A program made the position numbers and the translations under genes. The notes below the pieces were generated by a model. It was not told where the DNA came from and did not search any database. It saw only the letters and a program-made list of their open reading frames with translations. Shown one piece after another: positions 3,566-6,143 of a DNA stretch of 13,495 bases. This stretch comes from a virus (taxonomy: Duplodnaviria; Heunggongvirae; Uroviricota; Caudoviricetes), in IMG/VR virus record IMGVR_UViG_3300028991_000009, positions 1 to 13,495 of that record, one strand, 5' to 3'. Position 1 is the first letter of the stretch. Each line of letters opens with the position of its first letter.

Positions 3566-4264
3566 TTACTGCGAAAGTTTATTAATGGAAAGGAAACCGC
3601 CGAAATTAGCCACCATGCCGCGCAGCTCACACCCGCGCAGACACTTGCTGCATCTGTCCTTACGGATATCCGTGGTGGGGTTATCGAACTCATCCGCCAC
3701 CGCAGGACCGTTATACCCGCATTCATCGCCCCGGTAATCCCACATACAGGTGTTCGCCAGCATGATGCGACCAGGAAACAGCGCCCCGTCCGTCTCGGTC
3801 GGTGTCGCCAGCACAAACGAGGCCGTCATGGCCGTCAGCTCTGACATCTGCTCCACCACCCAGCGGTCGGTCAGCTCCTGCTCCGGGTCTGCCTCAGGAT
3901 TGCCTGCCACAAAGTTCACCGCATCCAGAAAACGCGCATACACCCGACGGCGGACCACCGTGGCCCCCACCAGACTCTGCAGGTCCTCCGCCATACCGGT
4001 GACAAGACCGAACAGATTGGACACCGTCAGCGACGGTCTGGCACTGCTGCCCTTCCCGTTCATCTCAAAACCGCTGCCGTCAATCGGGTATGCCTCATAC
4101 GTCCGCCCCTGCCAGGTGACCGGCTCCCCTTTTTCATTCAGCTCGTTGCAGAAAAAATACCGCTCACCGCCCTGCACCGTCAGGTCAATTTCCCAGAGCA
4201 CCACCCGCGGTGACTGTTCTGATTTCACCGACTCGTTCAGACTTTCTTCGTGGATCTCCTGCAT
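3566..4264 (-). CDS. L: Minor tail protein L
   Basis: 232 aa, the same length as lambda gpL, with near-colinear similarity (MQ.I..E.LNE....EQS..VVLWEIDLT..GGERYFFCNE.NEKGEPVTWQGR ... GNFGGFLSINKLSQ). Confidence 0.95.
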   Translation of the reverse strand: MQEIHEESLNESVKSEQSPRVVLWEIDLTVQGGERYFFCNELNEKGEPVTWQGRTYEAYPIDGSGFEMNGKGSSARPSLTVSNLFGLVTGMAEDLQSLVGATVVRRRVYARFLDAVNFVAGNPEADPEQELTDRWVVEQMSELTAMTASFVLATPTETDGALFPGRIMLANTCMWDYRGDECGYNGPAVADEFDNPTTDIRKDRCSKCLRGCELRGMVANFGGFLSINKLSQ

Positions 4265-4276
4265 AAACTTCCACTC

Positions 4277-4301
4277 ATAAAAAAGGGGCGCAATGCGCCC
4301 C
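4277..4301 (-). terminator. Rho-independent terminator closing the porin insertion, 13 nt upstream of the L start
   Basis: Minus strand GGGGCGC / ATT / GCGCCCC (4285-4301) followed by TTTTTTAT (4277-4284). The plus-strand orientation lacks a T tract. Confidence 0.7.
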
Positions 4302-4384
4302 GAACAAAAAAGTTCAATTAAAAATCGAAAGCAATGAAGGTAATAAAATGAAAATTAAATCGGCTAATTGCCGATTGCAGTGAC

Positions 4385-4438
4385 CGGTGAAAACTATACT
4401 TTCACCGCTACAGACCATCTGTGAGGGCAGATGGTCTG
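4385..4438 (-). other. Two adjacent stable hairpins in the porin 3' UTR
   Basis: Perfect 11-bp inverted repeat cagaccatctg(4411-4421) / 6-nt loop / cagatggtctg(4428-4438), and an 8-bp stem cggtgaaa(4385-4392) / 7-nt loop / tttcaccg(4400-4407). Neither is followed by a U tract on the minus strand. Confidence 0.5.
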
Positions 4439-4462
4439 TATTTGTTCACTCACCAGTTATCA

Positions 4463-5599
4463 TCAGAACTGATAAGTCATACCAACGGCAACGATATTAT
4501 CCGTTGCAACACCTGCATCCTGGGTAAACTGACTTTCATCAATCAGATTGATTTTATAATCAACATAGGTGGACATATTTTTATTGAAATAATATGTTGC
4601 ACCCACATCAATATATTTAACCAGATCCTGATTGCCATAGTTTTTACCACCGACAATGACATCCTGAGCACGAGACTGCAGGAACGCCAGAGATGGACGC
4701 AGACCGAAATCAAACTGATACTGTAATACCGCTTCAAAGTTCTGGGCTTTATCTGCCACCCCTTTGTCGCCAAAGGTCGTCATATTCTGAGTCTCAGAAT
4801 ATATTGTCGCCAGATAAATGTTGTTGGCATCATATTTAAGCCCGGTGCCCCACATCTCAGCGTGTTTACCTTTTGCAACACTGCCGGAATCAACAACTGT
4901 TTGAGTACCGTTTACTGTTTGCGTACCATTCAGGCCTTTCACCTGATTGTTGGTACGGTCCGCGTTAGTATATGCAGCCACGATACCAAAACCTTCATAT
5001 TCATAACTGGCAGAGAAACCATAACCATCGCCATTAGCTTCCTGAAGGTCATCACGTTCATTTTTGCCCTGATACTGAGCAGCAAAATTCAGGCCATCAA
5101 CAAGTCCAAAGAAATCAGTATTACGGTAAGTCGCCACACCAGAAGTACGGGCAGTCATGAAGTTATCAGTCTGGGTCCAGACATCACCACCAAACTCTGG
5201 TAATACGTCGGTATAAGCACCAACATCATACGCAATACCATAGTTACGACCATAATCAATGCTGCCAAAGTCACCGAACTTCAGACCAGCAAACGCCAGA
5301 CGGGTCTTATTACCCGCAGCACCGTCTGATTCAGTTTTATTACCAGAGAACTGATATTCCCACTGACCAAAACCGGTCAGTTGATCATTAATCTGAGTTT
5401 CACCTTTAAAGCCCAGACGCGCATATGTCTGATCACCATCATTTCCCTTATCGCTTGAGAAATAATGCAGTGCGGTTACTCGTCCATACAAATCAAGTTT
5501 ATTGCCATCTTTATTGTAAACTTCTGCAGCCTGTGCCCCGGCTGCAAAAATCACAGCCGCAGCCACGGCTGAAAGTGCCACTGTCATTTTTTTCATCAT
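4463..5599 (-). CDS. General diffusion porin of the OmpC/OmpF superfamily, closest to phage-type NmpC/Lc/OmpD porins
   Basis: 378 aa. Signal peptide [24 protein letters not shown] followed by [15 protein letters not shown]. Conserved porin blocks [96 protein letters not shown], and the C-terminal YQF beta-barrel signature. SD AAGGA lies 5 nt upstream of the ATG. The gene is markedly more AT-rich than the flanking tail genes. Confidence 0.95.
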
Positions 5600-5801
5600 T
5601 TGTTCCTTATTTTAATTGAACTATTCATGAATTGGGCTGTCATGAACGCCAGTTAAAATATTTTACTACAAATTCTGAATTCAACTCATTAAATGCAACA
5701 AAATGTAAATAAAAGAGCGATTTCGCACTTTTTGTTAAGACAACAAAAAATAATTTTGCACGAAACAATAAAGATTAATTTATAATACAATTCCTGGAAA
5801 T
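5600..5801 (-). promoter_or_regulatory. AT-rich upstream region of the porin gene with a putative promoter and an OmpR-box-like element
   Basis: A 202-bp AT-rich spacer between the M stop and the porin start. Minus-strand TTTACATTTTGTTGCATTT (5709..5691) resembles OmpR binding sites of ompC/ompF (TTTACATTTTGAAACAT-type, from memory). A candidate -10 TAAAAT lies at 5665..5660 with a weak -35. Confidence 0.4.
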
Positions 5802-6143
5802 CTATGAGATTACCTGCTCAATCGTGCAACTGAAATCACTGTACCGGGCGTTATCCGTAACACTCCACTCCCGGCACACCACCCTGACCGTCCGGTTATG
5901 TTTCGGGGGCTTCCACAAAAAAGCCCGGTAACCACCATGCCATGACAGAAACGCGGACAGTGCCTCCCGCTCAGCATCCGTTGTCACCCGAAAAACCACC
6001 TGAAAGGTCTTCAGTTGCGCATTCAGTCCTGCCGGACGACGCTGCTGATAACCGTCGCCAAACTTCACCGTCATCACCGACGGTTTCTCCGTCACCTGCA
6101 TCCCTTCCCGGGGACACCAGTGAAGGGTCTTAATCTCATCCAC
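5802..6143 (-). CDS. M: Minor tail protein M
   Basis: 113 aa. Motifs FGDGYQQRRPAGLNAQLKT and FLWKPP match lambda gpM (109 aa) as recalled. Its start overlaps the tape-measure stop by 8 nt. Confidence 0.9.
   Translation of the reverse strand: MDEIKTLHWCPREGMQVTEKPSVMTVKFGDGYQQRRPAGLNAQLKTFQVVFRVTTDAEREALSAFLSWHGGYRAFLWKPPKHNRTVRVVCREWSVTDNARYSDFSCTIEQVIS

What the first reader, a model, noticed from the sequence alone, without database searches (positions are those of the whole stretch)
4265..5801. Porin gene inserted between tail genes M and L as a self-contained cargo cassette
M and L are adjacent in lambda; here a 1.5-kb AT-rich block separates them. It carries an intact NmpC/Lc/OmpD-type porin gene with its own SD, a 200-bp AT-rich upstream region and a canonical intrinsic terminator just before L. 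Known phage porins (lc of PA-2, nmpC of DLP12) sit, as far as I recall, next to the Q antiterminator and lysis genes, so a porin inside the tail assembly operon is an unusual placement. A prophage porin can remodel the outer membrane of the lysogen, giving lysogenic conversion or exclusion of phages that use OmpC/OmpF.
Basis: partly seen in the sequence, partly recalled or inferred. Interest (0 to 1): 0.8.

Follow-up and report, generated by a model that had tools for sequence, protein, structure and literature searches.

The report
Prophage porin cassette with anti-porin RNA
A dormant virus in E. coli carries, between two of its tail genes, an intact outer-membrane pore gene followed by a conserved folded RNA that looks able to shut down the bacterium's own pore genes; this is a known phage trick (Lc/IpeX) found in a new place and form.

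Summary
A 1,537-bp block at 4265-5801 has 41% G+C against 58% in the flanks. It separates tail genes M and L, which abut or overlap in about 1,200 of 5,426 complete E. coli genomes and in all 150 matching deposited phages. The block holds an intact general porin, most likely 377 aa starting at 5596, and ends in a strong terminator 13 nt before L.

It is not unique. About 50-90 complete E. coli genomes, 29 IMG/VR contigs and one Citrobacter carry the same cassette at the same junctions. These porins form their own clade: 81-99% identical to each other and about 71% to Lc/NmpC. Every member examined sits between M and L. Every Lc/NmpC-type gene examined sits between Q and the holin.

It is a conserved structured RNA with three hairpins showing compensatory changes. 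A covariance model links it to the IpeX region downstream of lc/nmpC. It carries an invariant MicF-like motif that can form 14 contiguous pairs with the ompF ribosome-binding site and also pairs with ompC.

Best reading: a moron that swaps porins. Expression and regulation are inferred, not shown. I found no published description.

The parts
5802..6143 (-). Minor tail protein M (113 aa). Its last residues and stop codon are supplied by the cassette junction.
   Evidence: Pfam PF05939 2.4e-33. Junction compared with phage 1717.
5597..5801 (-). AT-rich upstream region (G+C 0.26) with blocks conserved across alleles. SD AAGGA at 5608-5604. Candidate -10 TAAAAT at 5665-5660. OmpR-C1-like box TTTACATTTTG at 5709-5699.
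   Evidence: Alignments A2 and A9. Composition. The box is a 12-nt exact match to the K-12 ompC upstream region, but 132 of 1000 shuffles score as high. The consensus scan found no sigma-70 promoter on this strand.
4463..5596 (-). Porin CDS, 377 aa (378 aa if started at 5599). Signal peptide 5528-5596, mature N-terminus AEVYNK, PEFGGD motif in L3, C-terminal YQF.
   Evidence: dN/dS 0.06-0.10. AlphaFold2 model with 16 strands, pLDDT 68.
4865..4957 (-). Hypervariable loop between strands 9 and 10 (L5, residues 214-244). Its length differs by up to 30 aa among alleles. The window allele has a tandem [12 protein letters not shown].
   Evidence: Alignments A1 and A7. Strand map from the model.
4265..4462 (-). 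3'UTR: a conserved structured RNA of the IpeX kind (hairpins 1-3, single-stranded seed, terminator).
   Evidence: Single-sequence fold z = -7.2. Across 7 alleles, 97.3% of cells are paired and 10 pairs show compensatory change, against 4.7 +/- 1.4 in shuffles (0/500). JC distance is 0.16-0.34 against dS 0.5-1.35. CM R1 hits the lc/nmpC 3' regions.
4409..4441 (-). Hairpin 1 (13-14 bp), starting about 20 nt after the stop codon.
   Evidence: I3. 4 pairs with compensatory change within the clade, 10 across clades.
4385..4407 (-). Hairpin 2 (10 bp).
   Evidence: 4 compensatory pairs within the clade, 7 across clades.
4358..4376 (-). Hairpin 3 (7 bp). Some alleles carry a 13-nt insertion in its loop.
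4334..4347 (-). MicF-like seed UUUAUUACCUUCAU, unpaired. The core TTATTACCTT (4346-4337) is invariant in all 21 cassette loci checked.
   Evidence: 14 contiguous pairs with the K-12 ompF SD region AUGAGGGUAAUAAA. The 32-nt segment against TIRs gives ompC -21.5 (z -5.75) and ompF -23.2 (z -4.2), with no signal for its own TIR. The seed aligns to K-12 MicF.
4279..4301 (-). Intrinsic terminator (7 G-C pairs, loop ATT, U6), 13 nt upstream of the L start.
   Evidence: Invariant stem in 7 alleles.
4308..4346 (.). One arm of an imperfect 39-nt inverted repeat whose partner is the cassette's own 5'UTR/start region (5587-5625). It is evidence that the 3'UTR arose as an inverted copy of a porin 5' end.
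   Evidence: the repeat finder I1, 72% complementary. The antisense of the 3'UTR aligns to the 5' ends of ompC, ompF and an OmpD-like gene, 0/500 shuffles as high.
3566..4264 (-). Minor tail protein L (232 aa), with its own SD-like GGAAG after the terminator.

Best explanation
This is a moron: a self-contained cargo cassette fixed in the M/L junction of a lambdoid (HK97-type tail) prophage. It has two working parts.

(1) A general diffusion porin of a phage-borne lineage. This lineage is sister to Lc/NmpC and has hypervariable surface loops L5 and L6.

(2) A 198-nt structured 3'UTR of the IpeX kind. Its invariant single-stranded MicF-like motif is antisense to the ribosome-binding regions of the host ompF and ompC mRNAs, but not to the cassette's own.

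Proposed action. In the lysogen the cassette is transcribed from its own AT-rich, probably activator-dependent upstream region and stops at its terminator. The new porin is inserted into the outer membrane. The 3'UTR, either as part of the mRNA or as a processed fragment, represses translation of OmpF and OmpC. The cell surface is thus switched to the phage's porin allele. That would change sensitivity to porin-dependent phages and colicins, antigenicity and permeability. During lytic growth, Q-modified RNA polymerase reads through the terminator to express L, K, I and J.

Shown here: the anatomy, the recurrence, purifying selection on both the protein and the UTR, the RNA structure, the link to the IpeX region, and the complementarity.

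Inferred: promoter activity, expression in lysogens, repression of ompF/ompC, and any phenotype.
For: Cassette anatomy and foreign composition.

Same junctions and homologous non-coding flanks in alleles whose CDS is only 80-85% identical at the nucleotide level.

Strict lineage-to-slot association:
- Every porin of the clade at 81% identity or more that I examined lies between M and L. These are L001-L003, L005, L086-L093, L096-L101, L105-L107, and 29 of 29 IMG/VR loci. They include lambda-type tail modules and Citrobacter farmeri.
- All 51 IMG/VR porins at 72% identity lack M and L and lie beside Q and/or the holin, 46 of them with both.

Functional constraint:
- dN/dS is 0.06-0.10 at dS 0.5-1.35.
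- The 3'UTR diverges 3-4 times more slowly than synonymous sites.

RNA structure:
- Single-sequence fold z = -7.2.
- 10 compensatory pairs, 0/500 shuffles as high; slid controls pair at 35-47% against 97%.

Link to IpeX:
- A covariance model built only from M-L cassettes hits, end to end and immediately after the stop codon, PA-2 lc, K-12 nmpC and 51 of 51 other Q-S porins. Scores are 34-45 bits, E 1e-6 to 1e-4.
- Across both clades, 22 of 38 pairs show compensatory change.
- IpeX is reported to repress ompC and ompF translation (PMC5069750; PMC7177473; PMC8065619).

Seed:
- The core is invariant in all 21 cassette loci and occurs only 3 other times in 1.3 Mb.
- It forms 14 contiguous pairs with the ompF SD. 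Of the 8 non-self sites of this kind in 2.56 Mb, 5 are ompF-type porin TIRs.
- Duplex z-scores are -5.75 (ompC) and -4.2 (ompF). The cassette's own, L and M TIRs show no signal.
- The seed aligns with the ompF-binding region of K-12 MicF.
Against: - There is no expression data of any kind.
- The consensus scan finds no sigma-70 promoter on the - strand upstream of the gene.
- The OmpR-box match is not significant against shuffles, 132/1000.
- When the whole UTR is scanned rather than the conserved segment, the best duplex with ompC or ompF is reached by 5 of 100 shuffles.
- 1 of 53 control gene starts pairs as well as ompF and ompC.
- A sequence-only profile (nhmmer) does not connect the UTR to the lc/nmpC 3' region. 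The link rests on structure plus the terminator, and the model's E-values are rough.
- As I recall the original IpeX paper (not held), it found no obvious complementarity to ompC.
- Another part of the 3'UTR is also complementary to the cassette's own 5'UTR, so escape of its own mRNA from repression is not certain.
- The receptor of this phage is unknown: the J C-terminus is 49% identical to lambda J and 98% to that of BP-4795. A self-exclusion benefit therefore cannot be argued.
Confidence: 0.6

Rival explanations
1. The cassette only adds a porin. The 3'UTR is a cis element: stop-codon-proximal stabilising hairpins plus a terminator that insulates L-K-I-J from the porin promoter. It has no trans effect on host porins, and the MicF-like motif is a fossil of the inverted duplication that created the UTR.
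For: - The antisense of the UTR resembles porin 5' ends in general, including its own, so complementarity could be inherited rather than selected.
- The whole-UTR duplex test is only marginal, 5/100.
- One control TIR pairs as strongly.
Against: - A fossil should decay. Instead the 10-nt core is invariant in alleles whose synonymous sites are near saturation, while the adjacent spacer varies.
- The complementary stretch lies in the predicted unpaired region next to a terminator with a U-tail, the usual layout of Hfq-dependent sRNAs.
- The structurally related IpeX region is reported to act in trans (PMC5069750).
Confidence: 0.27
2. The porin serves the lytic cycle rather than the lysogen. Because it is co-directional with the tail operon, it is made late from the Q-antiterminated transcript. 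It could, for example, alter the envelope before lysis or act as a decoy in debris or vesicles.
For: Unlike lc/nmpC, which lie antisense to late transcription, this cassette has the same orientation as M and L, so it must be transcribed late.
Against: - It has a strong conserved terminator and a 200-bp conserved AT-rich upstream region of its own. Neither is needed for a gene expressed only by read-through.
- No tail or lysis function is known for a 16-strand porin.
- The hypervariable surface loops point to long exposure on living cells.
Confidence: 0.08
3. A silent passenger or decaying relic with no function, or an assembly artefact.
For: No expression data. No consensus promoter.
Against: - The ORF is intact in every copy seen.
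- The exact 377-aa protein is indexed in 127 blocks of public assemblies.
- The cassette is present in complete genomes from several continents.
- dN/dS is 0.06-0.10.
Confidence: 0.03
4. The conserved motif is the ribosome-binding site of a small ORF on the opposite (+) strand: GAAGGTAATAAAATG, ORF 4349-4384, MKIKSANCRLQ*.
For: On the + strand the motif reads as a near-perfect SD plus ATG.
Against: - The ATG is absent in the L003, L105 and L096 alleles, which read ...AAGGTAATAACAGAAAG....
- A 13-nt loop insertion would change the peptide.
- The hairpins show compensatory, RNA-type changes.
Confidence: 0.02

Closest known systems
lc porin plus IpeX of phage PA-2, and nmpC plus IpeX of cryptic prophage DLP12
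   Same: - A phage-borne general porin with the same type of signal peptide, 71% aa identity.
- It is followed by a roughly 150-200-nt structured untranslated region ending in a GGGGCG-type terminator.
- My covariance model recognises that region end to end.
- IpeX is reported to repress ompC and ompF (PMC5069750, PMC8065619).
   Different: - Location and orientation: between tail genes M and L, co-directional with late transcription, rather than between Q and the holin on the opposite strand.
- A separate porin clade, with a gap between 81% and about 76% identity.
- The upstream regions are not alignable, apart from a short stretch next to the SD.
- The UTRs are not alignable by sequence alone.
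- The seed is longer, lies about 40 nt further from the terminator, and matches ompF contiguously.
MicF sRNA (divergent from ompC in enterobacterial chromosomes)
   Same: - The seed UAAUUUUCAUUUUAUUACCUUCAUU aligns with K-12 MicF UAACUUUAUUUAUUACCGUCAUU.
- It shares an exact 14-mer with a MicF-like gene of Serratia fonticola.
- It pairs with the same ompF SD region.
- It is genetically linked to a porin gene whose expression it would accompany.
   Different: - It is not a free-standing gene but the 3'UTR of the porin mRNA, on the same strand.
- Rfam gives no MicF hit even at E <= 1.
- It has three extra hairpins.
- It is also complementary to ompC.
Morons of lambdoid phages (Juhala et al. 2000, cited in PMC4104026): lambda lom and bor, HK97 gp15
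   Same: An extra gene between two late genes that are adjacent in relatives, with a different base composition and its own terminator. It may carry its own promoter (general definition in PMC8065619).
   Different: - I did not find the M/L junction described as a moron site.
- The cargo is a protein gene plus a regulatory RNA, not a single small gene.
Chromosomal OmpC/OmpF/PhoE/OmpD porins
   Same: Full-length Porin_1. 59% identity to K-12 OmpC. Best PDB relatives are OmpK37, OmpC and PhoE at about 1e-130.
   Different: - It is not at any chromosomal porin locus.
- No relative above 72% identity was found among the kept best matches in one genome per species for 185,579 species.
- RefSeq's name 'porin OmpC' is a family label, not orthology.

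Membership tests
Enterobacterial general porin (Pfam Porin_1; OmpC/OmpF/PhoE family) | Full-length match to the family profile above the curated cut-off | tested here: met
   PF00267 479 bits over profile positions 1-337 of 337. NCBIfam OmpC subfamily 510.7 bits against a cut-off of 484.
Enterobacterial general porin (Pfam Porin_1; OmpC/OmpF/PhoE family) | Signal peptide, PEFGGD constriction-loop motif, C-terminal aromatic residue, 16-strand barrel | tested here: met
   The sequence reads MKKMTV...[15 protein letters not shown] and ...TYQF. The AF2 model has 16 strands but only moderate confidence, pLDDT 68 and pTM 0.67.
Enterobacterial general porin (Pfam Porin_1; OmpC/OmpF/PhoE family) | Forms a trimeric diffusion channel in the outer membrane | not testable with these tools
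   Needs outer-membrane preparation or electrophysiology.
Moron (Juhala et al. 2000) | Lies between two genes that are adjacent in related phages | tested here: met
   M-L is uninterrupted in 150 of 150 matching phage records and in 1,200 of 5,426 E. coli genomes.
Moron (Juhala et al. 2000) | Base composition different from the surrounding genome | tested here: met
   G+C 0.41 against 0.58.
Moron (Juhala et al. 2000) | Own intrinsic terminator | tested here: met
   A stem of 7 G-C pairs plus U6 at 4301-4279, invariant in 7 alleles.
Moron (Juhala et al. 2000) | Own promoter, expressed from the repressed prophage | tested here: inconclusive
   The upstream region is AT-rich with conserved blocks. 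No consensus promoter was found, and the OmpR-like box is not significant. Expression cannot be tested here.
Lc/NmpC phage porin with IpeX | Porin of the Lc/NmpC clade | tested here: not met
   71% identity to Lc. It belongs to a separate clade (81-99% identical internally), with a clear gap in two databases.
Lc/NmpC phage porin with IpeX | Located between antiterminator Q and the lysis genes | tested here: not met
   Located between M and L. 0 of 29 IMG/VR members of the clade have Q or a holin nearby, while all 51 Lc-type loci have Q and/or the holin and none has M or L.
Lc/NmpC phage porin with IpeX | 3' untranslated RNA homologous to IpeX | tested here: met
   CM R1 gives 34-45 bits, full length, at the homologous position in K-12 nmpC, PA-2 lc and 51 of 51 other loci. 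Across the two clades, 22 of 38 pairs are compensatory. Caveats: nhmmer is negative, hairpin 3 is not aligned in the Lc clade, the E-values are rough, and Rfam has no IpeX family to test against.
Lc/NmpC phage porin with IpeX | The RNA lowers OmpC and OmpF synthesis | not testable with these tools
   Only predicted pairing is available.
MicF (Rfam RF00033) | Match to the curated covariance model | tested here: not met
   No Rfam hit in 4265-4462 at E <= 1.
MicF (Rfam RF00033) | Antisense seed for the ompF translation-initiation region | tested here: met
   14 contiguous pairs with the ompF SD. The seed aligns to K-12 MicF.

The most novel reading that the evidence does not exclude
The cassette is a complete, portable porin-replacement device. 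One transcript would deliver a new, antigenically variable porin and, through a MicF-like seed in its IpeX-type 3'UTR, silence the host's ompF and ompC by direct base pairing, while its own diverged ribosome-binding site escapes. The UTR arose by inverted duplication of a porin 5' end. That would give a concrete evolutionary route for anti-porin RNAs of the IpeX and MicF kind, and would also supply the base-pairing mechanism for IpeX that was missing.
Probability: 0.35. Interest if true: 0.7.

Novelty: new variant of a known kind. Interest (0 to 1): 0.55.

Why it matters
Porins are the entry point for many phages, colicins and antibiotics, and they are major antigens. A prophage module that both installs a variable porin and turns off OmpF and OmpC would change all of these properties in one step, and it moves horizontally.

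The cassette is present in roughly 1-2% of complete E. coli genomes, including many STEC and clinical isolates. Automatic annotation calls it 'OmpC', which could mislead porin typing and resistance studies.

The strict pairing of two porin lineages with two different moron slots is a clean case for studying how phage cargo sites are chosen and kept.

The predicted seed-target pairing also makes the unresolved mechanism of IpeX directly testable with reporter fusions and compensatory mutations.

Tried and rejected
- **OmpR box.** TTTACATTTTG upstream is a 12-nt exact match to the K-12 ompC upstream region and is nearly invariant across alleles (one differs by 2 nt). The local alignment is reached by 132 of 1000 shuffles, so it stays a lead only.
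- **Upstream homology with lc.** There is none beyond a short stretch next to the SD.
- **Sequence-profile homology of the 3'UTR with the lc/nmpC 3' region.** The nhmmer profile gave only the terminator, E = 2.4. The link appeared only with a structure-aware model.
- **Rfam.** It gave nothing in the cassette, the IpeX region or the Serratia micF-like locus.
- **Co-evolving pairing between the cassette's 5'UTR and 3'UTR (mRNA circularisation).** Cognate pairs average -15.9 and non-cognate pairs -15.2 kcal/mol, so there is no support.
- **Opposite-strand mini-ORF.** It is not conserved.
- **Receptor inference from J.** The C-terminus is 98% identical to that of BP-4795 and some Stx phages, 88% to phages 4A7 and ev017, and 49% to lambda. 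The receptor is unknown, so no self-exclusion argument can be made.
- **Source of the cassette in a chromosome.** No species-representative genome among the kept best matches has a relative above 72% identity.
- **EAEC 042 'distinct porin' Ec042-2121 (PMC2808357).** I considered it and did not pursue it. By its position it is more likely YedS (my inference, untested).
- **PADLOC.** No hit for the porin or the neighbouring lipoprotein.
- **Literature.** Five searches found no description of a porin between M and L. The original IpeX paper is not held.
Full report
**1. The observation**

The window is the late region of a lambdoid prophage read on the - strand. It runs through head-tail connector genes, an HK97-type major tail protein, G/T, the tape measure H (6136-9411), M (5802-6143), L (3566-4264), K, I and the start of J.

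Between M and L lie 1,537 bp (4265-5801) with 41% G+C, against 58% for the rest of the window.

The block contains one long ORF, 4463-5599. It is a complete general porin:
- Pfam Porin_1 1e-143 over the whole profile;
- NCBIfam OmpC subfamily above its cut-off;
- best solved relatives OmpK37, OmpC, PhoE and OmpF at about 1e-120 to 1e-132.

The likelier start is the second ATG at 5596, giving 377 aa. It is the only ATG in the other alleles. It lies 7 nt after AAGGA. It is the start used by RefSeq and other gene callers.

A hairpin of seven G-C pairs plus U6 at 4301-4279 ends 13 nt before the ATG of L.

In Stx phage 1717 the M stop and the L start overlap. Here M ends in three different residues with a new stop, and L has its own SD-like sequence.

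**2. How common it is, and where**

None of the 150 deposited phage records that match M and L has anything between them.

Among 5,426 complete E. coli genomes:
- 1,200 have this M-L pair uninterrupted.
- 48 have at least 80% of the insert, and 112 have some match.
- An evenly spaced listing shows that most of the partial matches are further alleles of the same cassette. Two of these were checked and are M-porin-L. The weakest matches are Lc-type genes beside Q.
- My estimate is roughly 90 genomes, about 1.7%.

The exact 377-aa protein is indexed in 127 blocks of public assemblies. All eight places shown have M-porin-L.

In a 5.8-billion-protein collection the relatives at 81% identity or more are almost all from E. 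coli, with one from Citrobacter farmeri. The next tier, at about 72%, is Lc/NmpC.

Among the kept best matches in one genome per species for 185,579 species, nothing exceeds 72%.

In IMG/VR:
- 29 loci carry porins 84-99% identical. All have L about 200 nt downstream, and 28 have M about 205-285 nt upstream. The one without M starts at the porin.
- 51 loci carry porins at 72%. All lack M and L and lie beside Q and/or the holin on the opposite strand.

The same slot is used in true lambda-type tail modules with gpU/V/G/T/H-like neighbours (L098, L101).

In L101, decayed fragments of an L 5' end and of an HK97-type M 3' end lie between its own M and the cassette. This is a scar showing that the cassette moved between tail lineages together with its flanks.

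So there are two porin lineages, each tied strictly to one slot.

**3. The cassette is old and under selection**

The non-coding flanks on both sides are homologous, and the junctions are the same, in alleles whose coding sequences are only 80-85% identical.

Pairwise dN/dS between alleles is 0.06-0.10, with dS 0.5-1.35.

Amino-acid differences and length changes of up to 30 residues concentrate in one loop, and a second indel site lies 30-40 residues later. On a moderate-confidence AlphaFold2 model (pLDDT 68, 16 strands) these are the loops between strands 9/10 and 11/12. By the usual porin topology those are extracellular L5 and L6 (the topology assignment is from established porin structures). 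The window allele carries a tandem NGTQTV duplication in L5 that the closest cluster representative lacks.

**4. The 3' untranslated region**

The 198 nt between the stop codon and L diverge 3-4 times more slowly than synonymous sites: Jukes-Cantor 0.16-0.34 against dS 0.5-1.35.

The region folds far better than shuffles, z = -7.2.

Seven alleles support three hairpins plus the terminator:
- 97.3% of cells are paired.
- 10 pairs show compensatory change, against 4.7 +/- 1.4 in shuffles (0 of 500 as high).
- Slid controls pair at 35-47%.

Between hairpin 3 and the terminator lies an unpaired stretch. Its core TTATTACCTT (4346-4337) is invariant in all 21 cassette loci checked and occurs only three other times in 1.3 Mb.

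A covariance model built only from these cassettes gives full-length hits that begin about 16 nt after the stop codon of PA-2 lc, K-12 nmpC and every one of 51 other Q-S porins (34-45 bits, E 1e-6 to 1e-4). Apart from reverse-strand hits on the cassette's own palindromic hairpin, nothing else in the 0.5 Mb of IMG/VR loci scored.

Across both clades, 22 of 38 pairs show compensatory change. That alignment is fitted to the model, so the count leans towards the structure.

The matched region downstream of nmpC/lc is where IpeX is encoded. IpeX is the prophage sRNA reported to repress ompC and ompF translation (PMC5069750, PMC7177473, PMC8065619). The placement of IpeX in the nmpC/lc 3'UTR is from my memory of Castillo-Keller et al. 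2006, which is not held.

Sequence-only search does not find this relationship, and Rfam has no family for either RNA.

**5. What the unpaired motif matches**

UUUAUUACCUUCAU can form 14 contiguous pairs (13 Watson-Crick and one G-U) with AUGAGGGUAAUAAA, the Shine-Dalgarno region of K-12 ompF.

In 2.56 Mb of fetched loci, counting both strands, there are only eight such sites outside the cassettes themselves. Five are the initiation regions of ompF-type porin genes of E. coli, Enterobacter and Pantoea.

For the conserved 32-nt segment, duplex energies are:
- -21.5 kcal/mol with the ompC initiation region (z = -5.75, 0/1000 shuffles);
- -23.2 kcal/mol with ompF (z = -4.2, 1/1000);
- no signal for the cassette's own, L or M initiation regions.

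The values hold across the seven alleles.

The evidence is not overwhelming. Scanning the whole UTR gives p of about 0.05 for each target. One of 53 control gene starts pairs as well.

The model also aligns the seed to the ompF-binding part of K-12 MicF, at 18.5 bits. A MicF-like gene of Serratia fonticola shares an exact 14-mer with it.

The antisense of the whole UTR is significantly similar to the 5' ends of ompC, ompF and an OmpD-like gene (0/500 shuffles) and, less so, to the cassette's own 5' end. The repeat finder reports a 39-nt imperfect inverted repeat between the UTR and the cassette's own start region.

I infer that the UTR began as an inverted copy of a porin 5' end.

**6. The upstream region**

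It is 202 bp long with 26% G+C and has several blocks conserved across seven alleles. The consensus scan found no sigma-70 promoter on this strand.

A TAAAAT at 5665-5660 could serve as a -10 element. The conserved TTTACATTTTG box 24 nt upstream of it is identical to part of the K-12 ompC regulatory region. From memory, that part is OmpR site C1. The match is not significant against shuffles.

Independent expression in the lysogen therefore remains an inference from the moron-like architecture.

**7. Comparison with what is known**

By function and architecture the cassette works like the lc-IpeX module of PA-2 and DLP12: a phage porin followed by an RNA that lowers the host porins.

It is not a member of that module as defined by porin clade or genomic position. 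Both were tested and not met.

It meets the structural definition of a moron, except that promoter activity is unproven.

Its seed works like MicF, but the RNA fails the Rfam MicF model.

I found no paper describing a porin between M and L. RefSeq labels it 'porin OmpC' automatically.

I class it as a new variant of a known kind. Interest is moderate. The placement alone is a modest surprise. The conserved RNA with a directly testable seed-target prediction is the more valuable part.

Noticed in passing
window 9442-9855 (- strand): A second AT-rich insert (G+C 0.44) lies between tail genes T and H. It encodes a 137-aa protein with a lipoprotein signal (…FLTGC). It matches PHROG 6823 (unknown function) and has no Pfam, NCBIfam or PADLOC hit. 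It is present in L005 and L086-L093 and absent from L001-L003. This is the slot where HK97 carries its gp15 moron (from memory).
   Followed up: partly
L086 3788-6100: In one assembly with the identical porin, an IS66-family element (three ORFs) sits between the 137-aa ORF and the tape-measure gene.
   Followed up: no
L002 6233-8245; L107 1-1745: Some relatives carry a four-gene block between L and K: P22-type antirepressor, YlcI/YnfO, an Arc-family repressor and a ClpP-like protease. The L/K junction is thus another cargo site in this tail operon.
   Followed up: no
L101 4663-4800: Between the lambda-type M and the cassette lie a decayed copy of the first ~75 nt of L (stop at codon 6) and ~55 nt of an HK97-type M 3' end. 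This is a recombination scar showing that the cassette was imported with its flanks.
   Followed up: partly
window 4865-4957 (- strand): Loop L5 of the window allele has a perfect tandem duplication, [12 protein letters not shown]. The 98%-identical cluster representative P0001 (371 aa) has a single copy.
   Followed up: partly
L072 about 5560-5650 (- strand), Serratia fonticola: A micF-like gene lies upstream of an ompC-like porin: a TATAAT -10, then GCTATCATCATTATTTTCATTATTACCTTCATT..., then a terminator. Rfam does not report it at the gathering threshold. It shares an exact 14-mer with the window's 3'UTR seed.
   Followed up: partly
window 4308-4346 and 5587-5625: A 39-nt imperfect inverted repeat (72% complementary) joins the porin 3'UTR to its own 5'UTR/start region and includes a perfect 13-mer, AGTTCAATTAAAA. 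Cognate and non-cognate allele pairs pair equally well, so co-evolving 5'-3' pairing is not supported. It may be only a trace of the UTR's origin.
   Followed up: yes
window 4349-4384 (+ strand): An 11-codon ORF (MKIKSANCRLQ*) lies behind a near-perfect SD on the strand opposite the 3'UTR. Its ATG is missing in other alleles, so it is probably the mirror image of the antisense seed and not a gene.
   Followed up: yes
L003 2649-2789; L005 1176-1316; L088 15209-15349: Several relatives carry a hok/gef toxin gene just downstream of J, where others carry an Ail/Lom-family gene. This is variable cargo at the J-stf junction.
   Followed up: no
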